Positions 4,553 to 19,162 of a stretch of 64,000 nucleotides of DNA are shown here, one piece after another (the first letter of the stretch is position 1; each line of letters opens with the position of its first letter). Below the pieces are notes generated by a model that did not search any database, was not told the origin of the DNA, and saw nothing but the letters and a program-made list of their open reading frames with translations. This stretch comes from Pseudomonadota bacterium (GTDB lineage: Bacteria > Bdellovibrionota_F > JAHFAK01 > JBDREC01), in NCBI GenBank assembly GCA_043820105.1, contig JBDREC010000004.1, positions 5,682 to 69,681 on the forward strand, in the 5' to 3' direction. Position numbers and translations under genes: made by a program.

Positions 4553-6868
4553 ATGTTGCTTTTATATATTAAATCAACAGGTTATAAGATGGTTAAAAAT
4601 TCTGCTATTGCTTTTAAATTAAGGCTGGCAAGAAAAATGTTAATAATTACAGTTGCTTTGCTGGCTTTAACTATTCTGTTATTTTCAGGCTGTTTGCAAG
4701 GTGAAAATGGCCAGCCTAATTCAGGAACAAGCGGAAATGTGAATGATTCTGAAGGAATAGAGGAAGATAGTATTACAACAGAAGATGATTTAGGTATTGT
4801 TGATTCTGCAGATGTAACTGAGGCAATAGAAGATGCTATTGATAGTATAACATCTCCTGTAAATCTTCCGGTGCCTAGCGAAATAGATGAAGTTGATTAT
4901 GCTTTTACCATTTCTGCAAATCTCCCAGTAACAGACATTGAATCCTCGGCTAAGTTAAGTGATTTTAGTTTAATTTCTAGAAATGATATTATTTCCAGGA
5001 ATGACAATAATCCAGGAAATTCTTCATATTTATCTAAATCTAAAAAACTAAAATATTCAACTTTAGCTTCACCAGCTATAGCTTGTGTTAAGATTGAACA
5101 AGATAGAGTTAGCGGAGAGCTTACAACTAAAGCCTATATTGCAGAAGAAGATGGAACTGTTGTAATCTTTTGGGAGGATTTTCCAGATGAAGTAAATACA
5201 ACTTTTTCAATTTATGTAAAAGATGAAACTTATGGTTGGATACATTTTGAGGATATTGTTACTGAAAGTGATTTAGATGAAGTTTATCATTCAATCGATT
5301 TTTCTAGCTATAGTTCTTCAATTGATTTAGGAAGTTTAGCAATTGAAAACTCAAAACTTATTTCTTCTAGCTCTCTAAATTTAACAAGTTCTCCTGATCC
5401 TGTTGGAGGATTATCTTCTGTTTCTGAGTTTTATGCCTATGGGCACATTACTCAAAGAATAGGCACTGATGATTCAAATACTCTTTATGCAATTACTACT
5501 GATGGATCTGATGTTACAACATGGCTTTTTAATCAGTCACAATTTCTAGATGATGGATATACAAATAATGGTAATTCTGCAAATCTAATTATTACTCCAA
5601 GTGATCTGGCTATTGAGGGGTCCTTTAAACAAACAATTGTGGTTAGTGATGAAGATTATACTTCTTTTTACGCCACATTTTTTAATACCCATTTAATAGA
5701 TTCAACTCTAGATATTAATACCTCTAGTCCTGTATCTTATATGCCTCCAGATGCAATTCACTATGAAGCGGATGATTTTTTAAGAGGGAAACTTTTAGCA
5801 TTTGGGGATAGTCGGAACAAAATATTTTCAGCAGGTGCTTCCAAGTCAATAACAGGAGGGCATGGTGATTATGCTGTCTGGCATTCTTTTACAAGCTCAG
5901 GCATTCTGGTTTCTCCTGAGGTTTATCATGATAATGTGGAAGCAATAGCCCAAGGTATTTATTATGGAGGCACAACTGATGCTGATACAGATGGAACAAA
6001 CTTTGTAATTGCCAATAAGGGCGCTGGAGGAAAAAAGATTGTAGCCAGGTTAATAAATTCTTCCTATAGTATTACTACTACAAAAATATTTGAAGCAAGC
6101 TCAAGCATTTCAGATCCAAGAGTTGCCGTAAATAATTATGGCCATGGTATTATTGTTTTTAAGGCAGATGGAGATTTATATTACTCAATTATTGATACAA
6201 ATGAGGCAAGTATTTCAGATGCAATTCTTTTTGATCTTGCTTCTTTTAATTGTACTTCAGATGGATTTATAGACGTAGTTGTTTTAAACTCTGATAAAGT
6301 AATAATTAAAAATGGTTATAATGCACAGTCAAAAGTTTGTTTAATCGCCTCAGATTACTCTGAGGAGGGACTTGATTTTACAGACTCCTGGACAAAAAAT
6401 CCTTCAGTAGCTTCAAATTACTCAAAACTTGGCTCTATATATGATAAAGACATGCTTGCCTTAATCCACGGATGGCAGCCTGGTTATGGAGAAGCTCTTA
6501 AAATAACAAAATATAATAAAGATGGCTTATCTGATAATGAAAATGGAATTACCATTATAACTTCAGATAGTTCTACTGTCCGAGCTCCAAAGCTAACCAG
6601 TATAAGTGTTTCAGGTGATGCGCAAGGTCGAATTCTTGCTTCTTGGATTGCACAAGTTCCAAATGAAAGCACAGCTTATGTCTATGCAGTTGTTTTTACA
6701 GCCAATGGAGATGTTATTAATTCTGACGATGATAAATTTTTGGTTAATTCAGGAGTATTGAATTATCTTGAAAATGTTTCAGGAGCAATGCTTGATAATG
6801 GGAAATTTGTGATTACCTATACCTTGGCTGGTTCTACCAGTAACTATCTATACAACTTAAGCCTTTAG
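4553..6868 (+). CDS. Large lipoprotein of unknown function, member of the ISRND-motif family
   Basis: Strong RBS GGGAGGGG. Lipobox LLFSGC. Acidic/Ser-rich linker followed by LISRNDIISRND. No recognised catalytic domain. Confidence 0.6.
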   Translation: MLLLYIKSTGYKMVKNSAIAFKLRLARKMLIITVALLALTILLFSGCLQGENGQPNSGTSGNVNDSEGIEEDSITTEDDLGIVDSADVTEAIEDAIDSITSPVNLPVPSEIDEVDYAFTISANLPVTDIESSAKLSDFSLISRNDIISRNDNNPGNSSYLSKSKKLKYSTLASPAIACVKIEQDRVSGELTTKAYIAEEDGTVVIFWEDFPDEVNTTFSIYVKDETYGWIHFEDIVTESDLDEVYHSIDFSSYSSSIDLGSLAIENSKLISSSSLNLTSSPDPVGGLSSVSEFYAYGHITQRIGTDDSNTLYAITTDGSDVTTWLFNQSQFLDDGYTNNGNSANLIITPSDLAIEGSFKQTIVVSDEDYTSFYATFFNTHLIDSTLDINTSSPVSYMPPDAIHYEADDFLRGKLLAFGDSRNKIFSAGASKSITGGHGDYAVWHSFTSSGILVSPEVYHDNVEAIAQGIYYGGTTDADTDGTNFVIANKGAGGKKIVARLINSSYSITTTKIFEASSSISDPRVAVNNYGHGIIVFKADGDLYYSIIDTNEASISDAILFDLASFNCTSDGFIDVVVLNSDKVIIKNGYNAQSKVCLIASDYSEEGLDFTDSWTKNPSVASNYSKLGSIYDKDMLALIHGWQPGYGEALKITKYNKDGLSDNENGITIITSDSSTVRAPKLTSISVSGDAQGRILASWIAQVPNESTAYVYAVVFTANGDVINSDDDKFLVNSGVLNYLENVSGAMLDNGKFVITYTLAGSTSNYLYNLSL

Positions 6869-6992: not shown

Positions 6993-8483
6993 ATGGGGAA
7001 GTGCTGTATTTGTTTTATATCATTGTGTATTTTTCTTTCATGCTCGTCCTTCAATAACTTTGATTATCGATTTTTAGTTGGGTCTTCATCATCTGGCGAT
7101 GAGTCCTATTTAATTTTATCAGGTATTATAACCAGAAATGATCTGCAAAACATTGATAACATATTAACAAGAAATGATCTTTTTCTTAATCGTGAGATTC
7201 TTGAAGTAAATAATGTTGCTATTGATAGTTTAGGCAGTGATTCTGATGAAATTATTCAAAGAAATGATTTATCTGCCACTTTATCAGAAGACATTCTAAT
7301 TAAATCAACATCACTTTTCATGACTTGTGATGCAATTTTGTCAATTAAAAGCTCAAAAGGTTATGAAGAAAGTGATGAAATTAATCTCTATGATTCAAAT
7401 TTCTTATATGCTGATGTGGATTCAGATGGCTATTTTGAGATAAAGGTTTACGCCAGTTCTTACATCGCCCAGCTAACCAATTTTACAATTAGAAATGAAC
7501 TTACTGGAGATCCAATTGTTTCATTTAATTTTCAAAAGGGCAGTGCGCTTTTTGAAGGAATTGAAATGCAAGATGCTGACATCGATTTGGGTGAAATCAG
7601 GTTTAGTTCAGAAAGAGCCAGTATTGATATTAATGATATTCCTGATATTATTGGTATTGAAGAAATAGATGTAGAAGATTCAATTGATGATGAAGCATCA
7701 TTGGAAGCCGGTAGTGAAAACGCTCAAGGGGAAAATGTTTTGACAGATAAAAATGAAAATGAAGATGAAGAAGAAGTTGAGACATATCAGTCCTGCAATA
7801 ATTTAGATTCTATAGATAGCTTATTTTTATCTACTAATATTGATGAAAATGAAGGAAGTATAATCTCAGATTATTCATCTTCTGAAAATGAAGGAACATT
7901 ATACAATGGTTCTTGGGGAAATGGTTCTATTGTAGATGGTATGCAAACAACTTACTTTGATGGCAGCTCAACATTCATTCGTTTTCCTGATATTGGACCA
8001 GCCTTAGAGGATGAAATTACTGTTATGGCATGGGTAGATAGGGCCTCTATATCTTTAGGAGATACAATTATAAGTAAATGGAATATGGATCAAAATGATG
8101 GCGATTCTTTCTTTTTATCTGTTGGTTGGGATGCTGCTTCATTTATGGTTGATACCTGGAATGGATCATATAACGAAGGTGAAGCTATTCATATAAACTC
8201 TAATCGACAGTGGTATCACATTGCAGGTTCTTATACAAAAAACACAATTAAGCTTTATGTAAATGGAGAGCTAATTGGCAGTCAAAATATATCAGGTGAC
8301 GATTTAAAATATGATGCTACAATTCCTTATGATATTGGAAAACAATATAATCCAAATGATGAAGATAGTGAAGACAACTATTGGTTCAAGGGATATATAT
8401 CAGGAGTAAAGGTTTTTAATACAGAAATTTCTGAAGAAGCAATATCTGCATATTATGAGTGTATGGATAATTTTGTAGATTAA
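6993..8483 (+). CDS. Lipoprotein with C-terminal LamG/concanavalin A-like lectin domain, ISRND-motif family
   Basis: Lipobox FLSCSS. IITRNDL/ILTRNDL/IIQRNDL repeats. C-terminal YFDGSSTFIRFPD...TVMAWV...WYHIAGSYTKNTIKLYVNGELIGS matches the Laminin_G_3 pattern. Confidence 0.7.
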   Translation: MGKCCICFISLCIFLSCSSFNNFDYRFLVGSSSSGDESYLILSGIITRNDLQNIDNILTRNDLFLNREILEVNNVAIDSLGSDSDEIIQRNDLSATLSEDILIKSTSLFMTCDAILSIKSSKGYEESDEINLYDSNFLYADVDSDGYFEIKVYASSYIAQLTNFTIRNELTGDPIVSFNFQKGSALFEGIEMQDADIDLGEIRFSSERASIDINDIPDIIGIEEIDVEDSIDDEASLEAGSENAQGENVLTDKNENEDEEEVETYQSCNNLDSIDSLFLSTNIDENEGSIISDYSSSENEGTLYNGSWGNGSIVDGMQTTYFDGSSTFIRFPDIGPALEDEITVMAWVDRASISLGDTIISKWNMDQNDGDSFFLSVGWDAASFMVDTWNGSYNEGEAIHINSNRQWYHIAGSYTKNTIKLYVNGELIGSQNISGDDLKYDATIPYDIGKQYNPNDEDSEDNYWFKGYISGVKVFNTEISEEAISAYYECMDNFVD

Positions 8484-9505
8484 TTTTCTAAATAAAAGTC
8501 ATATATTTTTTTTACACCCGTTTCGTCAAAATCTTTATTAAAAATCATAATTTCATCAATAATACCGTAATAATGATCACCTAAACTTTCAAGACTTGCT
8601 ACATAATCTTCTTTAAAAACAGGACTACAGGCTTCATTGTCATTAATTAAAGATATGTCCTCTTGTCTGTTTTCAATTAATTCTCCGTTTAAAAAAAATG
8701 AAACTTCGAGGATATTTTCAGATATTGCTTTGACGCTAATTCCAACAAACTGAAATGTGTTTTTTTCAAAAGAATAATATGCATCTGTGTTTATATTTAA
8801 ACCACAGCCTTCTATTGATCCCAAATCAAGTCCTGGTCTAAATGATGGAAGGATGTTGCTGTTTTCATCTTGTTCTAAAGCAGCGATAAAAGAAAATGAT
8901 CCACCTCGAATAATTGTTTGTAGATTGTTTAAAATCCTTGTTTCAGTATCCAGACTAATCCACGCAAAGAAAGAAGCACTATCACCAAGCTTAAGACTGT
9001 TGCCAGTATTGCCGTTTACATCATGCATGATTTTTAAAGGATCTGTAAATCCATTTAAATAATAACATTCTCCGCTTGGGCATCTAGAGTTATCTTCAAT
9101 ATATTCATTATGATTTTCAAGATCAACCATTTCACCATATTCTTCAGTGTGCCATGTATGTGTATGGTCAGAAACCCCTATACTGCAGCCATTATGAAAG
9201 TAAAAAGTAAAATCAGTGTCCGCTGTATCATAATTTGGATCTGTTTTTACATACATGGAGTCTTCATAGGAGGTTCGCTTATCAAGATCAAATGAATAAT
9301 ATTCAATGAGTCCATCAACAAGGCCACATCCAATTTCAAATTGTTCACTGGTATCTTGGAGATTGCTTGATGAGCCAAATGGATTGTCTAAATTGCTTGA
9401 GCTACATGATTCTTCGTTGTTAAGCAAAAGTAAAAGTCCATTGGCATAAAGATAAAATGGAAGCAGTAAAAAAAGCGTGATTTTGATGCAGAATTTCATT
9501 TGCAC
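8480..9505 (-). CDS. Secreted LamG/concanavalin A-like domain protein
   Basis: Signal peptide MQMKFCIKITLFLLLPFYLYANG. LKLGDSASFFAWISLD...NTFQFVGISVK...VSFFLNGELIEN is a LamG-like fold signature. Confidence 0.65.
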   Translation of the reverse strand: MQMKFCIKITLFLLLPFYLYANGLLLLLNNEESCSSSNLDNPFGSSSNLQDTSEQFEIGCGLVDGLIEYYSFDLDKRTSYEDSMYVKTDPNYDTADTDFTFYFHNGCSIGVSDHTHTWHTEEYGEMVDLENHNEYIEDNSRCPSGECYYLNGFTDPLKIMHDVNGNTGNSLKLGDSASFFAWISLDTETRILNNLQTIIRGGSFSFIAALEQDENSNILPSFRPGLDLGSIEGCGLNINTDAYYSFEKNTFQFVGISVKAISENILEVSFFLNGELIENRQEDISLINDNEACSPVFKEDYVASLESLGDHYYGIIDEIMIFNKDFDETGVKKIYDFYLEN

Positions 9506-9794
9506 TCCGTATAAAATGTTTTGTGTAATTAATAACTTACAAGAATAATATATGCTTTTTGAATTCGGTTTTAAGTTTTATAACAAAGATTTTTAATAAT
9601 GTCAAATCATCAAAAAGTCAAAAAGTTGGCAGCCAACGTTCAATCCAAAATGGCTCACTCATTTTTAAGCTCATTCACACTTGACCTTTTATATGAAACT
9701 GATAATAAGCAAAATGCTGCAGACAAAAGCCTTAAGTTGTTAGCTGAAGGCTGATCGCTGAAAGCTGATTGCTTATTACTAATAGGTGCTAAAT

Positions 9795-10742
9795 ATGAAA
9801 AATATTCTTGTAATGGGTGCTTCTGGTCAAATTGGTTCAGAATTAACTTGTGCTCTTAGAAAAGAGTATGGTGATTCAAATGTTGTTGCTTCTGATATTA
9901 AAAAAGGTTTATGGGCAAATGCTTGCGATGAAGGACCCTTTGAATATCTAAATGCAACAGAAGGCGAAAAGATTCTAGATGTTGTAAAGAAATACAATAT
10001 CGATACTATTTTCAATCTTGTTGCCTTGTTATCAGCAACAGCAGAAGAAAAACCTCAACTTGCCTGGGATATCAATGTTGGTTCACTTGTTAAAATTTTA
10101 GAAATAGCCAGAGAAAATAATTGTGCAGTTTTTACTCCAAGTTCAATTGGTGCCTTTGGACCTAGTACTCCTAAAGATAAAACCCCACAGCTTACAATTC
10201 AAAGACCAAGCACTATTTATGGTGTAACTAAAGTTTCAGGAGAGCTGCTTTGTGATTATTATTACCAAAAATTTGGAGTTGATACCAGAGGTTTAAGATA
10301 TCCTGGCATTATCTCAAATGTTGCTTTACCTGGCGGTGGAACCACTGATTACGCTGTACATATTTATTATGAAGCTATAAAGAATAAAAAATATACATCC
10401 TTTATTGATAAAGGAACTTTCATTGATATGATGTATATGCCTGATGCATGTCGTGCTGCAATGGAGCTTATGGAAGCAGACCCAGTAAAACTTAATCACA
10501 GGAATGCATACAATGTTACAGCAATGAGTTTTGAGCCAGAAATGCTAGCTAGAGAAATTAAAAAACATATTCCAGATTTTGTGCTTTCATATAACGTTGA
10601 TCCCATAAGACAGAGAATCGCTAATTCTTGGCCTGATAGTATTGATGATACTGCTGCAAAAGAAGATTGGGGATGGAAGGCTGAATTTGATCTTATTAAG
10701 ATGACAGAAGATATGATTAGAGTGTTGAAGGAAAAGTTATAA
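9795..10742 (+). CDS. tdh: NAD-dependent epimerase/dehydratase family protein, probable SDR-type L-threonine 3-dehydrogenase
   Basis: Rossmann motif VMGASGQIGSEL. Catalytic YGVTKVSGELLCDYYYQKFGVDTRGLRYPGIIS. kbl lies three genes downstream. ATG at 9795 with AGGTG RBS preferred over the GTG at 9786. Confidence 0.55.
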   Translation: MKNILVMGASGQIGSELTCALRKEYGDSNVVASDIKKGLWANACDEGPFEYLNATEGEKILDVVKKYNIDTIFNLVALLSATAEEKPQLAWDINVGSLVKILEIARENNCAVFTPSSIGAFGPSTPKDKTPQLTIQRPSTIYGVTKVSGELLCDYYYQKFGVDTRGLRYPGIISNVALPGGGTTDYAVHIYYEAIKNKKYTSFIDKGTFIDMMYMPDACRAAMELMEADPVKLNHRNAYNVTAMSFEPEMLAREIKKHIPDFVLSYNVDPIRQRIANSWPDSIDDTAAKEDWGWKAEFDLIKMTEDMIRVLKEKL

Positions 10743-10746
10743 GAAT

Positions 10747-10774
10747 CGTACAGCGTACAGTGTACAGCGTACGG
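10747..10774. repeat. Tandem heptamer array (CGTACAG)x4, degenerate, immediately 3' of the tdh stop codon
   Basis: cgtacag cgtacag tgtacag cgtacgg read directly from the sequence. Confidence 0.8.
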
Positions 10775-10799
10775 CGTGAAATTTATATGAGGTGAATTT

Positions 10800-11174
10800 G
10801 TGATTTTTGGTATTGGTGTTGATATAATTGAGGTAAGTAGGCTTGATAAAGAAGCTAAGATATCTGATAACTTCTTTAGTCGTGTTTTTACTGAAAAAGA
10901 AATTGAATATTGTGAGTCTAAGAAGTTTTCAGCTCAGCATTATGCTGGTAGATTTGCGGCTAAAGAAGCTTTTTTTAAAGCATTAGGGACAGGCTTAAGG
11001 GATGGATTGACCTGGAAAGATGTAGAGCTCACTAATGATGAACTTGGAAAACCAAGTCTATGTTTTTCAGGAAGAGCAAAAGAAATTATTAAAGAAAAAA
11101 ATATTAAAAATGCGCAAGTATCTTTGTCACATATAAAGAAGCTTGCTAAGGCATTTGTTATACTGGAGACTTAG
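10800..11174 (+). CDS. acpS: Holo-[acyl-carrier-protein] synthase (4'-phosphopantetheinyl transferase)
   Basis: MIFGIGVDIIEVSRL...FSAQHYAGRFAAKEAFFKALGTG is the canonical AcpS signature. GTG start with GAGGTGA RBS. Confidence 0.8.
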   Translation: MIFGIGVDIIEVSRLDKEAKISDNFFSRVFTEKEIEYCESKKFSAQHYAGRFAAKEAFFKALGTGLRDGLTWKDVELTNDELGKPSLCFSGRAKEIIKEKNIKNAQVSLSHIKKLAKAFVILET

Positions 11175-11285
11175 TTATAAGTTGTAAGTCGTAAGTCGTA
11201 AGTCATAAGTCGTAAGTCATAAGTCGTAAGTCGTAAGACATAAGACATTCTTACCACTTATAGCTTACCACTTACCACTTACCAC
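11175..11285. repeat. Inverted pair of heptamer arrays: (GTCGTAA/GTCATAA)x10 followed by (TTACCAC)x5
   Basis: Directly visible. Core GTAAG in arm 1 is complementary to CTTAC in arm 2, giving a periodic 5-bp-helix hairpin. Sits between the acpS stop and the RBS of the acs-like gene. Confidence 0.85.
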
Positions 11286-11304
11286 TTGCTCCAAAGGAGA
11301 CAAC

Positions 11305-13008
11305 ATGAACAATATTGGATCTTATGATGAAAAAGCTAGAGACTTTAATTGGTCAGATTCAGAAAAAGAGCTTGGTTATAAAGATGGTGATGTGATTAAT
11401 ATTGGATGGTATTGTACAGACAGAATTTGCGAAATGGGAAAAGCTGACAAGCTTGCTTTGATTTGGGAAGGAATGACTGGCGAAGAAAAAAAATTTACAT
11501 TTAATGATATTCGCATGGCCAGTAATACTATTGGAAACTACTTAAGAAACTTAGGAGTTGAATCAGGTGAAAGAGTTTGTTTATTCATGGACAAAGTTCC
11601 TGAGCTATATCTTGGCTTTTTGGGGGTTTTAAAAATAGGAGCGATTGCTCAACCTTTATTTTCAGCCTTTGGCGATGAATCACTGCATGTTAGACTTTCA
11701 AACGCTGAAACTTCTGTTGTTGTAACTCAACAAAAACATGTTAATAAGGTTAGAAAGATTCGAGATACTCTTCCATCATTAAAGCATATTATTATTGTTG
11801 ATTATAATGGAAAAAAACCTCTTCAAGAAAAAGAACATGCATTCTTTTTAGGAAATGAAACTCCAGTTGATAAATTTGATATTTTTAAAAGCAAAGCAGA
11901 AACTCCTTCTGTTTTACATTATACTTCAGGAACCACGGGTCAACCAAAGGGTGTTAAGCATGTTCATTATTCATTAATTTCTCAATATATTACAGCTAAA
12001 TGGATTCTTGATATTCAGGAAGATGATATTTATTGGTGCACAGCTGATCCTGGCTGGGTTACTGGAACTTCTTATGGAATAATTGGTGCCTGGTCAAATG
12101 GTGTTACTCAATGCGTGCTTGATAAAGGGTTTTCAGCTGAAAACTGGTATTCTTTCATGGAAAAACATAAAGTAACAAATTGGTATTCAGCTCCAACAGC
12201 CATTAGATCCCTTATGAAAGCAGGAATTGGGGCTGTAAAGAAATTTGATTTATCATCATTAAGACATCTAACATCAGTCGGTGAGCCTTTAAATGCTGAA
12301 GCTGTGGTTTGGTCAAAAGAAGCTTTTGGCAAAGCTTTTCATGATACTTACTGGCAAACAGAAACAGGTTCAATAATGGTAGCTAACTATCCTGGAATGG
12401 AAGTTAAGCCAGGCTCCATGGGAAAACCTTTTCCTGGAATAATTGGTGCGATTTTAGATGAAGAAACATATGAGCCAATTACTGAAGTAAATAAAATCGG
12501 AGCAATTGCTTTTAAACCAGGCTGGCCAGCAATGATGAGAACCTATTGGAACAATGAAGAAACATATCAAAAGAAATTTAAAAATGGTTGGTATCTAACT
12601 GGCGATAGATCTACTGTTGATAAAGATGGATACTTCTGGTTCACAGGACGCGATGATGATGTTATTAATACAGCAGGTCACTTAGTGTCGCCTTTTGAAG
12701 TTGAATCTGCCCTCTTAGAGCATGAAGCTGTAGCTGAGTCAGCAGTAGTAGCAAAACCAGATGATGTTAACATGGAAGTTGTTAAAGCCTTTGTAAGCTT
12801 AAAACCAGGCTTTGAACCAGATAAAGACTTAGAATTAAAAATCATGAATTTTATTAGAAAGAAACTATCACCTCTTGCAATGCCTCAAGAGATTGAATAT
12901 ATGGACAAGCTTCCAAAAACAAGGTCTGGTAAGATTATGAGAAGACTTTTAAAAGCACGGGAATGGGGTGAAGAAATTGGTGATACATCAACTTTAGAAG
13001 ATGATTAG
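11305..13008 (+). CDS. Acetyl-CoA synthetase family AMP-forming acyl-CoA (or acyl-ACP) ligase
   Basis: YTSGTTGQPKGV, IYWCTADPGWVTGTSY, YWQTETGS and C-terminal LPKTRSGKIMRRLLK...GDTSTLED closely track Acs-type enzymes. The protein is shorter than E. coli Acs at the N-terminus. Confidence 0.75.
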   Translation: MNNIGSYDEKARDFNWSDSEKELGYKDGDVINIGWYCTDRICEMGKADKLALIWEGMTGEEKKFTFNDIRMASNTIGNYLRNLGVESGERVCLFMDKVPELYLGFLGVLKIGAIAQPLFSAFGDESLHVRLSNAETSVVVTQQKHVNKVRKIRDTLPSLKHIIIVDYNGKKPLQEKEHAFFLGNETPVDKFDIFKSKAETPSVLHYTSGTTGQPKGVKHVHYSLISQYITAKWILDIQEDDIYWCTADPGWVTGTSYGIIGAWSNGVTQCVLDKGFSAENWYSFMEKHKVTNWYSAPTAIRSLMKAGIGAVKKFDLSSLRHLTSVGEPLNAEAVVWSKEAFGKAFHDTYWQTETGSIMVANYPGMEVKPGSMGKPFPGIIGAILDEETYEPITEVNKIGAIAFKPGWPAMMRTYWNNEETYQKKFKNGWYLTGDRSTVDKDGYFWFTGRDDDVINTAGHLVSPFEVESALLEHEAVAESAVVAKPDDVNMEVVKAFVSLKPGFEPDKDLELKIMNFIRKKLSPLAMPQEIEYMDKLPKTRSGKIMRRLLKAREWGEEIGDTSTLEDD

Positions 13009-13029
13009 AAATTAACAAAGGAGAACAAA

Positions 13030-13278
13030 ATGGATGAAATGAAAAAAGTTATATTAGACTATGTTTATGAAGAATATGTTGAAGATGAAGATGATGAAGT
13101 AACATATGATACTCCACTTATTTCAGGAGGCCTCGTTGACTCATTTTCAATGGTTTCATTAAAAAGATTTTTAGAAAATAAATATAACATCTCAATTCCA
13201 GATGAAGATGCTACCCCTGAGGCTTTTGATTCTGTTGATAAGATTTGTGTTTTAGTTAATAGATTTATTAATAAATAG
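13030..13278 (+). CDS. Acyl carrier protein-like (phosphopantetheine attachment)
   Basis: 82 aa, acidic, with GGLVDSFSMVSLKRFLE carrying the DS(L/F) Ser motif. Adjacent to an AMP-ligase, and acpS is nearby. Confidence 0.55.
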   Translation: MDEMKKVILDYVYEEYVEDEDDEVTYDTPLISGGLVDSFSMVSLKRFLENKYNISIPDEDATPEAFDSVDKICVLVNRFINK

Positions 13279-13340
13279 CTGTAAGCTGTAAGCTGTAAGC
13301 TGTAAGCTTTTCTTACCACTTACCACTTACTACTTACCAC
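13279..13340. repeat. Composite heptamer element (CTGTAAG)x4 + (TTACCAC)x4
   Basis: Directly visible after the ACP stop codon. The reverse complement of this element recurs at 28691-28754. Confidence 0.85.
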
Positions 13341-13360
13341 TTTTATCTCGGAGAGATATA

Positions 13361-14608
13361 ATGGCTTATACTGATGATATAAAAAAGGGTTACAAAGACG
13401 AACTTCAGGGCATAGCAGATGCAGGTCTTTTCAAAAGTGAACGCTTTATTCATGCAGCTCAAGATGCAGACATTGAAGTTGAATTTCCAGCTGGCGCGCC
13501 TATTAAAAAAGTTATAAATATGTGCGCGAATAACTATCTTGGTTTTTCAAGTGATCCTGAGATTGTTCAGGCTGCTCATAATGGTCTTGAAACAAGAGGT
13601 TATGGAATGAGCTCAGTTCGTTTTATTTGTGGAACTCAAGATATTCACAGAGAACTTGAACAAAAGGTTTCTGAATTTTTAGGCTGTGAAGACACAATAT
13701 TATTTCCATCCTGTATGGATGCTAATGCTGGTGTTTTTGAAGCTACTTTAGATGAACAAGATGTTATTATTTCAGATAGACTTGTGCATGCTTCTATCAT
13801 TGATGGCATAAGACTTGCCCCAGCTATGCATGATACTTTTAAACATTCCAATATGGAACATCTTGAAAGTAAATTACAACTGCATGCTGACAAAAGAAGA
13901 AAAGTGATCGTAACTGATGGTGTTTTCTCAATGGATGGTGATTGTGCTAAAATGGATGAAATCGTTGCACTTGGTGAAAAATATGGAGCTTTAGTTTTTT
14001 CTGATGAATCACATTCAACTGGTTTTATCGGCAAAACAGGAAAAGGTGTGCATGAAAAATGTGGTGTAATGGGCAAGATGGATATTATTACAACTACCTT
14101 TGGTAAAGCAATGGGCGGAGCAAGCGGCGGTTGTGTTTCAGGCAGACGTGAAATCGTTGAAATGTGTCGTCAAAAAGCAAGGCCTTATCTTTTCTCAAAT
14201 GCCATGGCTCCTGTAATTATTCAAGGTGTTTTAAAGGTTTTTGAAATTCTATCAGGTTCAACTGAAAGAAGAGATAAGCTGGAATGGAATGCAAATTATT
14301 GGAGACAAGGTCTAACGGATGCTGGCTTTGTATTAAAAGATGGAGATACTCCAATTGTTCCTGTTATGCTTTTTAATGCCAAGCTTTCTCAAGATTTCTC
14401 AATTGGTTTGTATGAAGAAGGAATTTATGCAATTGGATTTTTCTTTCCTGTTGTTCCAAAAGGACAAGCGAGAATCAGAACCCAGCTTTCAGCAGCTCAT
14501 ACAAAAGAGCATCTTGATAAAGCACTTGATGCATTTATTAAGGTGGGTAAAAAATATGAGATCCTAGGAAAAACCAAACAAGAAATCATTGAAATGTATG
14601 GAATGTAA
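13361..14608 (+). CDS. kbl: Glycine C-acetyltransferase (2-amino-3-ketobutyrate CoA ligase), alpha-oxoamine synthase family
   Basis: GLFKSERFI, SVRFICGTQDIHRELEQK, ASIIDGIRL, TDGVFSMDGD and GFFFPVVPKGQARIRTQLSAAHT are near-identical to conserved E. coli Kbl blocks. PLP-Lys region TTTFGKAMGGASGG. Confidence 0.8.
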   Translation: MAYTDDIKKGYKDELQGIADAGLFKSERFIHAAQDADIEVEFPAGAPIKKVINMCANNYLGFSSDPEIVQAAHNGLETRGYGMSSVRFICGTQDIHRELEQKVSEFLGCEDTILFPSCMDANAGVFEATLDEQDVIISDRLVHASIIDGIRLAPAMHDTFKHSNMEHLESKLQLHADKRRKVIVTDGVFSMDGDCAKMDEIVALGEKYGALVFSDESHSTGFIGKTGKGVHEKCGVMGKMDIITTTFGKAMGGASGGCVSGRREIVEMCRQKARPYLFSNAMAPVIIQGVLKVFEILSGSTERRDKLEWNANYWRQGLTDAGFVLKDGDTPIVPVMLFNAKLSQDFSIGLYEEGIYAIGFFFPVVPKGQARIRTQLSAAHTKEHLDKALDAFIKVGKKYEILGKTKQEIIEMYGM

Positions 14609-14726
14609 TCATATATCAGTATTATAATAAAACTCTTTTTTTAATTCCTAAAATCTGCTATAATAGAATTAATCTAAACTTTTAAAACTTTGATAATAAT
14701 AATGAAACCCTTTGGAGGGGGAGTAA

Positions 14727-17009
14727 ATGAAGGCTGTTTTTCAATCATTAATTATTCCATTTGTTCTATTATTCTATCTACTTAGCTGTTCTGCTACTTT
14801 GAAGAATACAGATGATTCACCAGGAGATGAGTCAATTGGCATTTCTGACAATGATGACAGTACAATTGGTGATGATTTAAGTTTAAGTGATGAAAATTCT
14901 TCGGAAAATTTGGAAAGCTCTGATGCAAGCAATTTAGCTGATTCAAGTCTTTCTGCAGGGCAAAGCAATGCAAGTGCTCAGAATGTTTTGGCTTTTTCAG
15001 GGAGTCTTTCCCTTGATGGTATAATTTCAAGAAATGATACTGCAAATATTATAAGCAGAACTGATGTTATAAGTGCTGGTATTACTGTAAGTTCAGCCTA
15101 TAAGGGATTCAATAATTTTAAGTTTTCATCAAGTGCAGAAACTTATGTATTTAAAATTGTTTTAACATTAAATAACCTTGATGAAGGTGAAGTTAATTCT
15201 TATACAACTTACACAACATCAAGTGGGATTTTTAGTGCAAGTGCTGATATTGATTCACTTGGTGATAACACTATTGCAATTTTAGCAGTATATTTTCCGC
15301 AAGAAAGTACAACAGGAGAAATAGAATGGATTTTGCTTGATTATGTTGTTGAACAGGATGAGCTAGCCCTGGTCAATATTTCTGATGAACTTATAGAAGC
15401 GAATTCAACAGTGGATTATGGGACAATATCAAATTCTACGAATGAAAATGGACAGGACATTTTGCAAACCTCAGGAATTATTATTGATGATGAATTAGAG
15501 TTTATGGCTAATAATGGACCCAACTGGCTTTCTAACACCGATATCCGTATTCATCATACTGTTTTTGCTGATGAAACCTTTGAGTATAATATGTCAACTT
15601 TTGCTTTGGATTTGGATGAAAATTTATTTGGTGTTTTTGGTGAATCATGGCTTACAATAGCTGAAAGTGATACTATTGCAGGCAAAGCAATATTAACAGC
15701 TGCTCCACCCACAAGTGCCTCTGGGACATATAAAGCAAAGGTCTGGGTAAAGGATCCCTCTGACAATATTAATCAAACAAACAGAAAATTTCATGTTGCC
15801 AAGAAATGGGATTTTGATAGTTCAACACAGTGTGTTCCTGAAATAGCGTCAGATCCAACTACCCAGTTTAAAAACAATGCATCTTCATATATGCGAATTA
15901 ATAAATATTATACAGGTATGTTACTGGCTTGGAGCTCAAATTTTGGTAATCAAGGCAAATATCAGACAGTAGCCTTAGGAGTAAATAAATATTGCAGCTT
16001 AATGACAGATGGAATCATAAAATTAAAAGCAGATGCTACTTATGACTATGAGCTGATGTATTTAGATACTTATCAAAACCAAGCTCAAGATAAAAACCAT
16101 GTTTTGGCAGTTTCAAAAATAACTTTTGACTTTGGGATAAAGGGGCTGCATTGGGCGATTTACGATTTTGATAGTATCAGTAATGGACAGGCAGAAATTT
16201 TAGTTGAAAATAGTTACATGCTGGAGGAAGGAGATAGTCTTTGGAATCCTAATGGAGGCTCAAATATTAATGGCGAAGGTATTTTTTGTTGGCCTGAAAC
16301 CAATGATGGTTTAACATCTAATAAGTATCTTACCTATAATTTAAGACAGCCTGAATTTTATTCGAGCACCAGAACCTTTGATTTTGATGATACTCCGACT
16401 CCTTTAAAGGTAAACTGTACCAAGTTGCTTTCAGATCAATATGCCTTTGTTGGTGGGGCATCTGATAATATTACTATTTTTTCATTGAGCGCAGAAGACG
16501 GCACTTTGCAAGTGGATTCACAAACGCAAATAGATCCCTCTGGAAATCATAATAGCGGAATAACCATGAGCTCTGTATATGATGGCAATCATTTAGCAAT
16601 AAATTATTTTATTCAAAACGATGCTGAACAGCATCTTTATGGATTTACAATTAATAATTCAGGAGACATCGTAGCAGACAGAGTAAATCTTTTTCAGGAT
16701 AGTGGAATTCTGATCGGACAAAATAATGTTGATCCAATTTTTTCAAGTGGGAGTTCAAATGGCTTAATGGCTACAAGTTTTGCTATTGGAAGTGAAGATA
16801 TAGGTATGCTTTATTTAATGATGAGTTTAACTGACAACTATTCTTATGAGCCTGTTGGATTTCAGCTTTTTTACAATCCTGAGGCCAGCAACATTACTTC
16901 CTATTATCCTGCTCCTTTAATCTTGGCCAGTGGAGAAATTGTATTTTTCTATCAGTATCAGGCTGGGTCAAGCATTGGAAAACTATTTATTATTCCAACC
17001 AGTGACTAG
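14727..17009 (+). CDS. Large lipoprotein of unknown function, ISRND-motif family
   Basis: RBS GGAGGGGGAG. Lipobox LLSCSA. Acidic/Ser linker then GIISRNDTANIISRTDVIS. Confidence 0.6.
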   Translation: MKAVFQSLIIPFVLLFYLLSCSATLKNTDDSPGDESIGISDNDDSTIGDDLSLSDENSSENLESSDASNLADSSLSAGQSNASAQNVLAFSGSLSLDGIISRNDTANIISRTDVISAGITVSSAYKGFNNFKFSSSAETYVFKIVLTLNNLDEGEVNSYTTYTTSSGIFSASADIDSLGDNTIAILAVYFPQESTTGEIEWILLDYVVEQDELALVNISDELIEANSTVDYGTISNSTNENGQDILQTSGIIIDDELEFMANNGPNWLSNTDIRIHHTVFADETFEYNMSTFALDLDENLFGVFGESWLTIAESDTIAGKAILTAAPPTSASGTYKAKVWVKDPSDNINQTNRKFHVAKKWDFDSSTQCVPEIASDPTTQFKNNASSYMRINKYYTGMLLAWSSNFGNQGKYQTVALGVNKYCSLMTDGIIKLKADATYDYELMYLDTYQNQAQDKNHVLAVSKITFDFGIKGLHWAIYDFDSISNGQAEILVENSYMLEEGDSLWNPNGGSNINGEGIFCWPETNDGLTSNKYLTYNLRQPEFYSSTRTFDFDDTPTPLKVNCTKLLSDQYAFVGGASDNITIFSLSAEDGTLQVDSQTQIDPSGNHNSGITMSSVYDGNHLAINYFIQNDAEQHLYGFTINNSGDIVADRVNLFQDSGILIGQNNVDPIFSSGSSNGLMATSFAIGSEDIGMLYLMMSLTDNYSYEPVGFQLFYNPEASNITSYYPAPLILASGEIVFFYQYQAGSSIGKLFIIPTSD

Positions 17010-17096: not shown

Positions 17097-17858
17097 ATGC
17101 TTTTCAAATCAATAAAATATTTAATTTTAATTTTAATTTTTGCTCCTTTAGTTGTTAACGCCATGACAGCTGAAGAAATTATAAATAAAGCAAAAAGTGT
17201 CATGAATCAGGATACTTCAAAATCCAGAAGTAAAATGATAATAGTTACAGACAAAGGAAAAGAAAGGATTTTTATCTCAGATTCTTTTTCAAAAAATAAA
17301 GGTGAAAAAAATCTAATAATTTACGTTGAACCCAGCAGGGTCAAAGGACAAGCAGTATTAATGCTTAATAATGCTGATGATATTTGGACCTATTTTCCAA
17401 ACACTGGAAGAGTTCGAAAGATGGCAACACATGCAAAGAAAAGAAAAATGCAGGGATCGGATTTTTCTTATGAAGACATGGGTTCAGGTGATGGATTTTT
17501 AGAAATTTTTAATGCAAAAAGATTAGATGATGAACAAAAAGATGGGTATGATTGTTATAAACTCGAATTAACAAAGAAAAAAGACAAAGACACTTCTTAT
17601 TCAAAGGTTATGCTTTGGATAATTAAATCAAATTACTTGCCAGTTTTCATACAATACTTTGACGAAAAATCCCCGACTTTATTATTAAAAGAATTAACCT
17701 TAAGTGATATTAAAACAATTCAGGGAATCCCAACTCCAATGAAAATGAAGATGGAAAATAAATTAGATAATTCCAAAACAGAAATGGAAACAATCTCAAT
17801 TGAATACGGAGTGGAGCTCAGTGATAACATGTTCACAGAAAAAGGATTGAAAAAATGA
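17097..17858 (+). CDS. LolA-like outer membrane lipoprotein-sorting family protein, partner of the MMPL exporter
   Basis: Signal peptide. About 250 aa with a basic/aromatic-rich pattern. Placed directly upstream of DUF1302-like and MMPL genes, as in conserved RND-associated trios. Confidence 0.5.
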   Translation: MLFKSIKYLILILIFAPLVVNAMTAEEIINKAKSVMNQDTSKSRSKMIIVTDKGKERIFISDSFSKNKGEKNLIIYVEPSRVKGQAVLMLNNADDIWTYFPNTGRVRKMATHAKKRKMQGSDFSYEDMGSGDGFLEIFNAKRLDDEQKDGYDCYKLELTKKKDKDTSYSKVMLWIIKSNYLPVFIQYFDEKSPTLLLKELTLSDIKTIQGIPTPMKMKMENKLDNSKTEMETISIEYGVELSDNMFTEKGLKK

Positions 17859-19060: not shown

Positions 19061-19080
19061 AACTTTGCAGTTTTAAAAAA

Positions 19081-19146
19081 GTATTCAGTATTTAGTATTC
19101 AGGAATTTATAAACTGACTGAATACCGAATACCAAATACTAAATAC
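19081..19146. repeat. Inverted heptamer arrays (GTATTCA)x3 ... (GAATACC/AAATACT)x4
   Basis: Directly visible between the DUF1302-like stop codon and the MMPL start codon. Confidence 0.85.
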
Positions 19147-19162
19147 CAAAATGGAGTTTTTT

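What the first reader, a model, noticed from the sequence alone, without database searches (positions are those of the whole stretch)
9795..14608. tdh and kbl split by acpS, an Acs-like AMP-ligase and an ACP
Kbl (very close to E. coli Kbl in all conserved blocks) and an SDR-type Tdh-like dehydrogenase normally form a two-gene threonine-to-glycine operon. Here they bracket holo-ACP synthase, an acetyl-CoA-synthetase-family ligase and a small carrier protein. A ligase + ACP + PPTase + alpha-oxoamine synthase set is the logic used to make acyl-aminoketones, for example sphingoid bases or CAI-1-type signals. The cluster may therefore make or recycle a short-chain acyl-ACP-linked aminoketone rather than only degrade threonine.
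Basis: partly seen in the sequence, partly recalled or inferred. Interest (0 to 1): 0.6.

Follow-up and report, generated by a model that had tools for sequence, protein, structure and literature searches.

The report
Carrier-protein version of threonine–glycine pathway
The five genes are real. Three of them (an acetate-activating enzyme, its own small carrier protein and a Kbl-like enzyme) form a very conserved, widespread and apparently unstudied module that seems to link threonine, glycine and acetate through a private carrier protein instead of coenzyme A.

Summary
All five genes are present as described: an SDR-type L-threonine dehydrogenase, AcpS, an AcsA-like AMP-forming ligase, an 82-aa carrier protein and a Kbl-like alpha-oxoamine synthase (AOS1). 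This is not a tdh-kbl operon interrupted by an insertion.

The conserved unit is ligase-ACP-AOS1, usually preceded by AcpS:
- The ACP occurs in at least 583 species genomes, nearly all MAGs: Bacteroidales, Aminicenantes, Zixibacteria, KSB1, Delongbacteria, Cloacimonadota, Chloroflexota and others.
- The ligase sits directly upstream in 71 of 74 loci and AOS1 directly downstream in 73 of 74.
- The three proteins are 69-80% identical to the window's across phyla.

AOS1 is a separate, 100%-bootstrap clade inside the Kbl family. A canonical Kbl often lies beside it. The ligase keeps the acetate pocket but has Leu in place of an Arg needed for the CoA step. Acetate transporters of two unrelated families, Pat/Sir2 and TDH recur nearby.

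Best reading: acetate is loaded on a private ACP, and AOS1 interconverts acetyl-ACP plus glycine with 2-amino-3-ketobutyrate, which TDH links to threonine. The direction is unresolved. The logic mirrors AasR-AcpR-SPT of bacterial sphingolipid synthesis, but the proteins are not members of those families. I found no paper describing it. I rate it a new variant of a known kind.

The parts
9795..10742 (+). SDR-type (UDP-galactose-4-epimerase-like) L-threonine 3-dehydrogenase. It interconverts L-threonine and 2-amino-3-ketobutyrate. It is an accessory partner of the module.
   Evidence: PDB phmmer: 18 solved L-threonine 3-dehydrogenases at E 1.7e-125 to 5e-71. Pfam Epimerase. YGVTK (YxxxK) motif in the translation. 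A homologue lies within 10 kb of the ACP in 15 of 83 loci.
10800..11174 (+). AcpS-type 4'-phosphopantetheinyl transferase. It presumably converts the apo carrier protein to the holo form.
   Evidence: TIGR00516 acpS 102 bits (cut-off 59.8) and PF01648. An AcpS homologue sits directly upstream of the ligase in 53 of 71 loci, at 46-55% identity to the window's.
11305..13008 (+). AcsA-like AMP-forming ligase. Proposed to be an acetate:[ACP] ligase.
   Evidence: NF003313 772 bits, above the 729 cut-off. 48.6% identical to B. subtilis AcsA (9g79) and 38.0% to E. coli Acs. The acetate-pocket residues V310, T311, V386 and W414 and the catalytic Lys609 are conserved. Arg526 is Leu in 65 of 65 family members. 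The gene is always about 20-40 bp upstream of the ACP gene.
13030..13278 (+). Dedicated 82-aa acidic carrier protein. The phosphopantetheine Ser38 lies in the invariant motif GG(I/L)VDSFSMVSLKRFLE.
   Evidence: PDB sequence hits to type II carrier proteins (6cxt, PltL, PigG, DltC). AlphaFold model with pLDDT 91.8; helix II starts at Ser38. Foldseek TM 0.75-0.86 to PltL, PigG, 6cxt and the aminoacyl carrier protein 4h2u, and 0.73 to 6bug. 37 invariant columns in 27 sequences from many phyla. 20 Asp+Glu against 8 Lys+Arg.
13361..14608 (+). AOS1: a Kbl-family PLP-dependent alpha-oxoamine synthase of a distinct, ACP-linked clade. Proposed to be an ACP-dependent glycine C-acetyltransferase (2-amino-3-ketobutyrate:ACP lyase).
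   Evidence: NF005394 557 bits, above the 460 cut-off, and below the cut-offs for BioF, SPT, ALAS and CqsA. Clade bootstrap 100/100. Within-clade mean identity 82%; 52% to E. coli Kbl. Clade-specific substitutions and a 17-aa C-terminal extension. Directly downstream of the ACP in 73 of 74 loci.

Best explanation
The window holds a self-contained, carrier-protein-dependent version of the threonine / 2-amino-3-ketobutyrate (AKB) / glycine + C2 pathway. The proposed steps are as follows.

1. AcpS phosphopantetheinylates the dedicated 82-aa ACP.
2. The AcsA-like ligase adenylates acetate and transfers it to the ACP thiol rather than to CoA, giving acetyl-S-ACP.
3. AOS1, a Kbl-clade PLP enzyme, catalyses acetyl-ACP + glycine <-> AKB + holo-ACP.
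4. The SDR-type TDH links AKB to L-threonine.

I commit to the ATP-driven condensing (assimilatory) direction as the more likely one: free acetate + glycine -> AKB -> L-threonine. Where a canonical Kbl is present, AKB could instead go on to acetyl-CoA. The private ACP pool would insulate this flux from the acetyl-CoA pool and let a highly acetylated carrier push an otherwise unfavourable Claisen condensation.

Shown: gene identities, the conserved synteny, the separate AOS1 clade, the intact acetate pocket and the Arg526-to-Leu change. Inferred: ACP as the ligase's acceptor, acetyl-ACP as AOS1's substrate, and the direction. My confidence in the direction-independent core is about 0.7. My confidence in the core plus the forward direction is about 0.45.
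For: (1) Linkage. The ligase is directly upstream of the ACP in 71 of 74 informative loci and AOS1 directly downstream in 73 of 74. AcpS is adjacent in 53 of 71. The loci come from Bacteroidales, Aminicenantes, Zixibacteria, KSB1, Delongbacteria, Cloacimonadota, Chloroflexota, Acidobacteriota and Ignavibacteriales MAGs.
(2) Joint constraint. Ligase, ACP and AOS1 are 71-78%, 69-80% and 73-80% identical to the window's across phyla. AOS1 is a 100%-bootstrap clade distinct from canonical Kbl.
(3) Substrates. The ligase keeps the acetate pocket (V310, T311, V386, W414) in 61-65 of 65 members. AOS1 keeps the SVRFICGTQ motif that it shares with Kbl in the alignment, and it scores above both Kbl equivalog cut-offs.
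(4) Carrier switch. Arg526, which is Arg in E. coli Acs and B. subtilis AcsA, is Leu in 65 of 65 ligases. In M. thermautotrophicus Acs, changing the equivalent Arg528 cut kcat 130-326-fold or made the enzyme unsaturable for CoA (PMC10455477). The ACP's nearest structures are stand-alone carriers, several of them solved with the ATP-dependent enzymes that load them (PltL/PltF, PigG/PigI, glycine:carrier-protein ligase).
(5) Pathway context. TDH lies within 10 kb in 15 of 83 loci and a canonical Kbl or Kbl-like paralogue in 37 of 83.
(6) Acetate context and direction. An AceTr acetate uptake transporter lies nearby in 22 loci. An ActP/MctC-like symporter with a DUF294-CBS protein lies nearby in Aminicenantes and Delongbacteria. 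Pat-like ACD-GNAT occurs in 15 loci and SIR2 in L004. I read these as the usual companions of acetate-scavenging Acs. In E. coli the acs-yjcH-actP arrangement was seen directly; that Pat and Sir2 regulate Acs is background knowledge.
(7) Precedent. AasR-AcpR-SPT is an experimentally shown ligase -> private ACP -> AOS system running in the condensing direction (PMC9386255). The E. coli BL21 cluster also carries an SDR gene.
Against: There is no biochemical evidence for any step. The ligase passes NCBI's acetate--CoA ligase equivalog cut-off and keeps Arg584, so it may still use CoA. The alignment around Arg191 is uncertain, and B. subtilis AcsA also lacks Arg there. AOS1 has substitutions next to PLP-site motifs: LNHAS to LVHAS, YSSxF to FPSCM and H325T. 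These could mean different chemistry rather than only a different thiol carrier. TDH and Kbl are classically catabolic. A co-encoded canonical Kbl would drain AKB made by AOS1, so the condensing direction gives no obvious net benefit over plain Acs in those genomes. The hosts are mostly anaerobes, for which the reverse, ATP-yielding direction would be useful. AceTr channels can work in both directions.
Confidence: 0.45

Rival explanations
1. Same enzymes and the same ACP chemistry, run catabolically. TDH oxidises threonine to AKB. AOS1 cleaves AKB with holo-ACP to glycine + acetyl-ACP. The AMP-forming ligase runs backwards (acetyl-ACP + AMP + PPi -> acetate + ATP + ACP). Acetate then leaves through AceTr. 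A private carrier pool would let anaerobes conserve the thioester energy independently of the acetyl-CoA/CoA ratio. The canonical Kbl would feed acetyl-CoA to biosynthesis in parallel.
For: TDH and canonical Kbl recur in the neighbourhood: 15 and 37 of 83 loci, and L028 has Kbl-x-AcpS-ligase-ACP-AOS1-TDH in one array. In this reading every associated gene works in one coherent direction. The hosts are labelled as lineages I take to be mostly anaerobic fermenters: Aminicenantes, Cloacimonadota, Zixibacteria and Bacteroidales. That an AMP-forming Acs makes ATP in Syntrophus aciditrophicus is from my own knowledge and was not checked here.
Against: No ANL ligase is known to work physiologically in reverse on a carrier protein. 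ActP/MctC-type symporters and the Pat/Sir2 regulators are typical of acetate uptake and activation. TDH is absent from the 10-kb neighbourhood in most loci. A protein-bound carrier is an odd choice for a high-flux fermentation.
Confidence: 0.25
2. Different chemistry on the same scaffold. AOS1 may not be a simple Kbl. It may be a decarboxylative (ALAS-like) aminoacetone synthase, or it may take another small acyl group. One example is glycolyl-ACP + glycine, giving the 3-amino-1-hydroxyacetone skeleton used for PLP synthesis. The product would then be a specialised small aminoketone, such as a cofactor precursor or a pyrazine-type metabolite.
For: AOS1-specific, clade-wide substitutions lie inside otherwise invariant Kbl motifs next to the PLP-stacking His and in the motif that, by analogy with AONS, should form the phosphate loop. 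AOS1 also carries a C-terminal extension. A second AOS paralogue of varying type (Kbl, AOS2b, AOS3) recurs beside AOS1, which suggests non-redundant functions. E. coli ActP is annotated as an acetate/glycolate symporter.
Against: The acetate-pocket Trp414 and the other pocket residues are kept. AOS1 scores as Kbl above both equivalog cut-offs and keeps the SVRFICGTQ block it shares with Kbl in the alignment. The TDH linkage fits AKB as the intermediate.
Confidence: 0.15
3. Nothing special: an ordinary tdh-kbl threonine degradation pair with a housekeeping acpS, a normal acetyl-CoA synthetase and an unrelated ACP that happen to lie between them.
For: Each protein passes, or nearly passes, the standard family models for Kbl, acetate--CoA ligase and AcpS. 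Kbl makes acetyl-CoA and Acs makes acetyl-CoA, so a loose metabolic link would be unsurprising.
Against: The ligase-ACP-AOS order, with 20-80 bp gaps, is kept in 71-73 of 74 loci across many phyla. The AOS is a separate clade that co-occurs with a canonical Kbl. The ACP family is tight: thousands of 69-85% identical members collapse to only 66 representatives at E<=1e-10. It is never seen in these loci without AOS1. The ligase carries a family-wide Arg526Leu change.
Confidence: 0.05
4. One reading: the module makes a long-chain acyl-aminoketone such as a sphingoid base or a CAI-1-type signal.
For: The gene logic (ligase, ACP, AOS, SDR) is the same as in the E. coli BL21 / Caulobacter sphingolipid cluster.
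Against: The ligase has the small acetate pocket and is only 23% identical to AasR. The AOS is 32% identical to BL21 SPT and below the SPT and CqsA model cut-offs. BLASTP finds no similarity between the ACP and AcpR, and hhalign gives only a weak 69% probability. The SDR is a bona fide threonine dehydrogenase.
Confidence: 0.03

Closest known systems
Tdh-Kbl threonine-to-glycine pathway (E. coli kbl-tdh operon; SDR-type TDH + Kbl)
   Same: The TDH here is a close relative of solved SDR-type threonine dehydrogenases. AOS1 belongs to the Kbl family by model score and by phylogeny. It keeps the SVRFICGTQ motif shared with Kbl and the PLP-site motifs aligned with E. coli Kbl, including the FGKA lysine motif. 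The intermediate is expected to be 2-amino-3-ketobutyrate.
   Different: AOS1 is a separate clade: 52% identical to E. coli Kbl, with fixed substitutions and a C-terminal extension. It is always encoded with its own ACP and an acetate-type ligase. It often co-occurs with a canonical Kbl. The thiol partner is proposed to be ACP, not CoA. E. coli Tdh is of a different enzyme family (zinc-dependent MDR type; my own knowledge).
AasR-AcpR-SPT module of bacterial sphingolipid synthesis (Caulobacter, E. coli BL21, Sphingomonas; PMC9386255)
   Same: The logic is the same. A specialised ANL ligase cannot use CoA and loads a private ACP, and an alpha-oxoamine synthase prefers that acyl-ACP. An SDR gene lies in the same cluster.
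   Different: The proteins are not homologous at family level. The ligase is 23% identical to AasR. The ACP is not detectably similar to AcpR by BLASTP and reaches only 69% hhalign probability. The AOS is 32% identical to SPT. Here the acyl group is predicted to be C2 and the amino acid glycine, not C16 and serine. The product is not a lipid.
AMP-forming acetyl-CoA synthetase (B. subtilis AcsA, PDB 9g79; S. enterica/E. coli Acs) with acetate permease and Pat/CobB control
   Same: 580 bits and 48.6% identity to AcsA. The acetate pocket and the catalytic, acetylatable Lys609 are conserved. Acetate transporters, Pat-like ACD-GNAT and SIR2 lie in the neighbourhoods.
   Different: Arg526 is Leu in all 65 family members, and position 191 is not Arg. 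The gene is always followed by an ACP gene. The acceptor is proposed to be the ACP thiol.
Acetate:[ACP-SH] ligases of citrate lyase and malonate decarboxylase (CitC, MadH). From my own knowledge; not checked here.
   Same: Acetate would be ligated to the thiol of a dedicated carrier protein, giving acetyl-S-ACP that takes part in a C-C lyase reaction.
   Different: Those ligases are not ANL-family enzymes. Their ACPs carry a different prosthetic group and are subunits of a lyase or decarboxylase complex. No alpha-oxoamine synthase is involved.
AOS enzymes that accept acyl-ACP from the housekeeping pool (BioF with pimeloyl-ACP; SulA/CapB cysteate acyl-ACP transferase, PMC9304779 listed)
   Same: A PLP-dependent alpha-oxoamine synthase takes its acyl group from an ACP thioester.
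   Different: Those enzymes use housekeeping AcpP and long or medium acyl chains. They have no dedicated ligase/ACP pair. AOS1 is below the BioF cut-off (348 against 426 bits).

Membership tests
Kbl / glycine C-acetyltransferase (NF005394, TIGR01822) | Score above the curated equivalog cut-offs | tested here: met
   557 bits against 460 and 556 bits against 493. Best PDB hits are Kbl structures (452 bits).
Kbl / glycine C-acetyltransferase | Groups with bona fide Kbl rather than BioF, SPT, ALAS or CqsA | tested here: met
   The Kbl-like group (AOS1 + AOS2b + Kbl) has bootstrap 100/100, with E. coli BioF and BL21 SPT outside it. AOS1 is below the cut-offs for BioF (348/426), SPT (223-296 against 500-670), ALAS (258/339) and CqsA (189/428).
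Kbl / glycine C-acetyltransferase | Orthology with canonical CoA-dependent Kbl (same clade, same conserved motifs) | tested here: not met
   AOS1 is its own clade (100/100) and is sister to AOS2b (99/100). Canonical Kbl genes in the same loci are closer to E. coli Kbl (59-61%) than to AOS1 (52-55%). Fixed changes are Y108F, S109P, F112M, E133R, N135V, H325T and GD to FN, plus a C-terminal extension.
Kbl / glycine C-acetyltransferase | Uses CoA/acetyl-CoA as the thiol substrate | not testable with these tools
   Needs an enzyme assay. The obligate linkage to an ACP argues for ACP.
SDR-type L-threonine 3-dehydrogenase | Close sequence similarity to characterised or solved TDHs, and the SDR YxxxK catalytic motif | tested here: met
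   E 1.7e-125 to 7ol1, and 17 further TDH structures at E<=5e-71, against 1e-12 for UDP-glucose 4-epimerase. YGVTK is present.
AMP-forming acetyl-CoA synthetase (NF003313 / AcsA type) | Score above the equivalog cut-off; acetate pocket (V310, T311, V386, W414); catalytic Lys609 | tested here: met
   772 bits against 729. The pocket residues and the Lys are conserved in 61-65 of 65 family members.
AMP-forming acetyl-CoA synthetase | The three conserved Arg residues for CoA binding and the thioester step (Arg191, Arg526, Arg584; PMC10455477) | tested here: not met
   Arg526 is Leu in 65 of 65. Position 191 is Pro, Gly or Asn; the alignment there is uncertain, and B. subtilis AcsA has Glu. Arg584 is conserved.
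AcpS-type phosphopantetheinyl transferase | Score above the TIGR00516/TIGR00556 cut-offs | tested here: met
   102 bits against 59.8 and 104.5 bits against 45.35; PF01648 at 73.9 bits.
Acyl/peptidyl carrier protein (PP-binding superfamily) | Helical carrier-protein fold with the attachment Ser at the N-terminus of helix II | tested here: met
   AlphaFold model with pLDDT 91.8; three major helices at residues 2-16, 38-52 and 69-80; Ser38 in the motif DSF. Foldseek TM 0.73-0.86 to PltL, PigG, 6bug and the aminoacyl carrier protein 4h2u.
Acyl/peptidyl carrier protein | Match to the Pfam PP-binding model or to a named NCBIfam ACP family above its cut-off | tested here: not met
   No Pfam hit at E<=1e-3. 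The best NCBIfam match is ACP_for_OlsHI at 62 bits against 130. It is an unnamed, tight ACP family.
AasR-AcpR-SPT sphingolipid module | Homology of each component to AasR, AcpR and SPT | tested here: not met
   Compared with the E. coli BL21 proteins. ACP: no BLASTP alignment, hhalign probability 69%. Ligase: 23% identity. AOS: 32% identity. SDR: no significant similarity.
AasR-AcpR-SPT sphingolipid module | The ligase acylates only its private ACP, and the AOS prefers that acyl-ACP | not testable with these tools
   This functional analogy is inferred from synteny and the Arg526Leu change. It needs biochemistry.

The most novel reading that the evidence does not exclude
The module is an ATP-driven route, channelled through a private carrier protein, that condenses free acetate with glycine to 2-amino-3-ketobutyrate and, with TDH, to L-threonine. 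That would be an aspartate-independent threonine and acetate-assimilation pathway, widespread in uncultured anaerobic bacteria and currently hidden under the annotations 'acetate--CoA ligase' and 'glycine C-acetyltransferase'. The mirror-image reading would be about equally novel: substrate-level ATP synthesis from threonine via acetyl-ACP and a reversed AMP-forming ligase.
Probability: 0.3. Interest if true: 0.8.

Novelty: new variant of a known kind. Interest (0 to 1): 0.62.

Why it matters
Three points would make this matter if the reading is right.

1. It would add a second, independent example of the 'ligase -> private ACP -> alpha-oxoamine synthase' design. This one would sit in central C2 and amino-acid metabolism rather than in lipid synthesis.

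2. It would redefine thousands of database entries now named acetate--CoA ligase and glycine C-acetyltransferase. The ACP alone has more than 7,400 relatives in the metagenome protein set and occurs in at least 583 species genomes.

3. It would change metabolic reconstructions of abundant uncultured anaerobes such as Aminicenantes, Zixibacteria, KSB1, Cloacimonadota and environmental Bacteroidales. In those reconstructions the fates of threonine, glycine and acetate are used to infer lifestyle.

The 70-82% identity of all three core proteins across phyla also points to horizontal spread of a self-contained, strongly selected function.

Tried and rejected
- Exact look-up of the window ACP in the contig index: not on record. 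The same sequence was later found as P0001 in an NCBI MAG labelled 'Pseudomonadota bacterium'.
- The ornithine-lipid OlsH/OlsI lead from the weak NCBIfam ACP hit: the paper never uses the term 'acyl carrier protein' and the score is far below the cut-off. Dropped.
- Riboswitch or other RNA leader upstream of the operon: no Rfam hit at gathering score in the window or in 7 related loci.
- Promoter and terminator scan of 9300-15000: no more sites than in shuffled sequence, and no informative operon boundaries.
- Literature searches for an ACP-dependent Kbl, acetyl-ACP with an alpha-oxoamine synthase, or this gene combination: nothing relevant.
- Membership in the AasR/AcpR/SPT families: tested against the E. 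coli BL21 cluster and rejected.
- Search for further conserved neighbours, such as glycine cleavage or reductase, threonine aldolase or deaminase, or pta-ackA, by clustering all ORFs within 10 kb of the ACP in 83 loci. None recurs. Beyond the core, only Kbl-like paralogues, TDH, AceTr, the ActP-like symporter, Pat-like proteins and lineage-specific genes do.
- Apparent exceptions to the synteny: frameshifts in nanopore MAGs or contig ends, except L038, L055 and L079, where the ligase is missing or displaced.
- Deciding the direction of the pathway from sequence: not possible.

Full report
**1. What is in the window**

Five co-directional ORFs occupy 9786/9795-14608 with short gaps of 57, 130, 21 and 82 bp.

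- The first is an SDR-type L-threonine 3-dehydrogenase. It matches 18 solved TDH structures at E 1.7e-125 to 5e-71, against 1e-12 for the nearest sugar epimerase. The ATG at 9795 is the likely start.
- The second is an AcpS-type phosphopantetheinyl transferase (TIGR00516, 102 bits, cut-off 59.8).
- The third is a 567-aa AMP-forming ligase. It passes NCBI's acetate--CoA ligase equivalog (NF003313, 772 bits, cut-off 729). It is most like PDB 9g79, which I take to be B. subtilis AcsA (580 bits, 48.6% identity).
- The fourth is an 82-aa acidic protein with 20 Asp+Glu and 8 Lys+Arg. It has no Pfam hit. It is nonetheless a carrier protein by sequence (type II PCP-like hits). It is also one by predicted fold (pLDDT 91.8; helix II starts at Ser38 of a DSF motif; TM 0.8 to PltL, PigG and an aminoacyl carrier protein).
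- The fifth is a 415-aa PLP enzyme above both Kbl equivalog cut-offs and below those of BioF, SPT, ALAS and CqsA. Its best solved relatives are Kbl structures.

The flanking genes are unrelated: large lipoproteins of unknown function and a LolA-like/MMPL export unit. No Rfam family and no informative promoter or terminator signal was found. The ACP is identical to a protein of an NCBI MAG labelled 'Pseudomonadota bacterium', on a 158-kb contig.

**2. The conserved unit is not tdh-kbl**

The ACP has 7,447 relatives in the metagenome protein set. The best 120 are 76-100% identical to it, and named sources include Bacteroidales, Zixibacteria, KSB1 and Acidobacteria. In the 50%-identity library the family collapses to only 66 representatives at E<=1e-10. 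Twenty-seven members from different lineages share 37 invariant columns, including GG(I/L)VDSFSMVSLKRFLE.

Eighty loci were kept. After removing near-duplicates there are 83 loci:

- The ligase lies directly upstream of the ACP in 71 of 74 loci with enough sequence.
- The AOS lies directly downstream in 73 of 74.
- An AcpS lies directly upstream of the ligase in 53 of 71.

The few exceptions are contig ends, frameshifts in nanopore MAGs, or three loci where the ligase is missing or displaced. Identities to the window proteins are 71-78% for the ligase, 69-80% for the ACP and 73-80% for the AOS. For AcpS they are only 46-55%.

TDH lies within 10 kb in 15 of 83 loci. The window's exact order, TDH-AcpS-ligase-ACP-AOS, recurs in the Zixibacteria and Ignavibacteriales loci L015, L025, L030, L047 and L068. 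So the module is (AcpS)-ligase-ACP-AOS and TDH is a recurrent accessory. The picture of a tdh-kbl operon split by an insertion is not right.

**3. The AOS is a distinct Kbl-family clade**

The ACP-linked enzymes (AOS1) average 82% identity to each other and 52% to E. coli Kbl.

Thirty-seven loci carry a second Kbl-like gene. In Bacteroidales this is a 398-399-aa canonical Kbl just upstream of AcpS. It is 59-61% identical to E. coli Kbl and only 52-55% to AOS1, and it scores higher on the Kbl model (622 bits). In Delongbacteria and some others, a 417-419-aa paralogue (AOS2b) follows AOS1. In Zixibacteria and Ignavibacteriales, a third AOS type at about 30% identity follows it.

A neighbour-joining tree with 100 bootstraps gives AOS1 100, AOS2b 100, AOS1+AOS2b 99 and all Kbl-like 100. 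E. coli BioF and BL21 SPT fall outside.

AOS1 keeps the Kbl-type SVRFICGTQ block and the other PLP-site motifs aligned with E. coli Kbl. It also has clade-wide changes inside Kbl motifs: YSSxFDANGG to FPSCMDANAG, LNHAS to LVHAS, E133R, H325T and GD to FN. It carries a 17-aa C-terminal extension.

**4. The ligase looks like an acetate enzyme with an altered thioester half-site**

Aligned with E. coli Acs and B. subtilis AcsA, the 65 ACP-linked ligases keep the acetate pocket: V310, T311 and V386 in 65 of 65, and W414 in 61 of 65. They also keep Gly524, Arg584 and Lys609.

Arg526 is Arg in both reference enzymes but Leu in 65 of 65. Position 191 is not Arg, although that part of the alignment is uncertain. 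Arg191, Arg526 and Arg584 are reported as the three conserved Arg residues needed for CoA binding and the second half-reaction. In M. thermautotrophicus Acs, Arg528Ala was unsaturable for CoA, and the Lys and Gln variants lost 130-326-fold in kcat (PMC10455477).

The ACP gene invariably follows the ligase gene. The ACP also resembles carriers that are loaded by stand-alone ATP-dependent enzymes. Together with the Arg526 change, this makes an acetate:[ACP] ligase the best reading. This is an inference, not a demonstration.

**5. Context points to acetate, threonine and glycine**

ORF clustering around the ACP shows few recurrent neighbours beyond the core:

- An AceTr 'acetate uptake transporter' (275 bits, cut-off 50) lies just after AOS1 in Bacteroidales and divergently in a Cloacimonadota locus. 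In all, 22 loci have one within 10 kb.
- In Aminicenantes and Delongbacteria, an unrelated ActP/MctC-like sodium:solute symporter and a DUF294-CBS protein lie next to the module.
- A Pat-like ACD-GNAT protein occurs in 15 loci.
- A SIR2 deacetylase follows the module in a Zixibacteria locus.

No glycine-cleavage, glycine-reductase, threonine-aldolase or pta-ackA genes recur.

**6. Mechanism**

The best-supported model has four steps. AcpS makes the holo-ACP. The ligase makes acetyl-S-ACP from acetate and ATP. AOS1 catalyses acetyl-ACP + glycine <-> 2-amino-3-ketobutyrate + holo-ACP. TDH connects that intermediate to L-threonine.

I give the direction-independent core about 0.7. The direction is open.

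- For the condensing direction: every characterised ligase -> carrier -> AOS system runs that way, the neighbours are typical of acetate scavenging, and AMP-forming ligases are normally driven forward. A private, highly acetylated carrier pool would also give a thermodynamic push that the shared CoA pool cannot.
- For the cleaving direction: TDH and Kbl are classically catabolic. A co-encoded Kbl fits a common catabolic direction. The hosts are labelled as lineages I take to be mostly anaerobic, and these could gain ATP by running the ligase backwards.

I put about 0.45 on core plus forward and about 0.25 on core plus reverse. I put about 0.15 on altered chemistry, meaning decarboxylative aminoacetone formation or another C2-C3 acyl group, which the motif changes in AOS1 leave open. 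Trivial coincidence and long-chain products are each unlikely (5% or less).

**7. Comparison with known systems**

The closest mechanistic precedent is AasR-AcpR-SPT of bacterial sphingolipid synthesis. There, a specialised ligase cannot acylate CoA and acylates only its private ACP, and SPT prefers that acyl-ACP (PMC9386255). The E. coli BL21 cluster (ligase, SDR, ACP, SPT) has the same four kinds of gene as the window.

The proteins are not members of those families. The ligases are 23% identical. The ACPs show no BLASTP similarity and only 69% hhalign probability. The AOSs are 32% identical, and the SDRs are unrelated. So the module works like AasR-AcpR-SPT, but it has been assembled from an Acs-type ligase, a Kbl-type AOS and a threonine dehydrogenase.

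Four literature searches found no description of an ACP-dependent Kbl or of this gene set. The library does not cover subscription journals fully, so prior description cannot be excluded.

**8. Verdict**

The functional-unit idea and the short-chain acyl-ACP/aminoketone idea hold. The 'split operon', 'ordinary Kbl' and sphingoid/CAI-1 analogies do not.
- The module is a new variant of a known kind: widespread, strongly conserved, unannotated as such and directly testable in vitro.
- Interest is 0.62.

Noticed in passing
window 4553-6868(+), 6993-8483(+), 14727-17009(+), 44427-46619(-): Four large predicted lipoproteins or secreted proteins share a tandem I-I-[S/T/Q]-R-[N/T]-D motif near the N-terminus. 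Three have no Pfam hit and one has only a Laminin_G_3 domain. Three of them flank the tdh-to-AOS cluster. This looks like an undescribed paralogous surface-protein family.
   Followed up: partly
window 17097-21856: A LolA_like protein, a 401-aa protein of unknown function whose start overlaps the LolA_like stop, and a 901-aa MMPL/RND-type transporter lie in a row. This could be a lipoprotein or lipid export unit.
   Followed up: no
window 34231-38757(+): A 1508-aa ORF with no Pfam match at E<=1e-5.
   Followed up: no
window 2774-3862(+): A 362-aa protein that matches both SAM-methyltransferase domains and the plant-type GRAS domain (E 1.2e-9), i.e. a bacterial GRAS-like methyltransferase.
   Followed up: no
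L015:6054-7379, L025:12029-13264, L030:11570-12994: In Zixibacteria and Ignavibacteriales, a third alpha-oxoamine synthase type follows AOS1. It is about 30% identical to AOS1, has 'LNHNC' instead of 'LNHAS', and is below all NCBIfam cut-offs. Its function is unknown.
   Followed up: partly
L006, L021, L040, L043, L054, L066, L071, L079 (gene starting about 1.55-1.6 kb downstream of the ACP start): The AOS2b paralogue directly after AOS1 looks mosaic. Its N-terminal half carries the Kbl-type motifs (YSSAF, LNHAS). Its C-terminal half carries the AOS1-type features (FNA, R298, W309, the C-terminal extension). In these loci AcpS is absent from the operon, and most of them have a 1253-aa Ser/Thr kinase gene next.
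   Followed up: partly
L013, L026, L053 (Aminicenantes), L066 (Delongbacteria): An ActP/MctC-like sodium:solute symporter lies next to the module in all four loci. In the three Aminicenantes loci a 1081-aa PHP-Cache-CBS-DUF294 nucleotidyltransferase-like protein lies there too. I recall this pairing from acs/actP loci of other bacteria (my own knowledge).
   Followed up: partly
L030, L041, L053, L074: The ligase and/or AOS1 are broken into several reading frames in these 'MFD' MAG assemblies. These are most likely long-read indel errors rather than pseudogenes.
   Followed up: yes
all related loci compared with the window: The ligase, ACP and AOS1 are 69-80% identical to the window's across phyla, while the adjacent AcpS is only 46-55% identical. 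The window itself is about 32% G+C and the cluster 34-36%. This suggests horizontal spread of the three-gene core under strong constraint. It was not analysed phylogenetically.
   Followed up: partly
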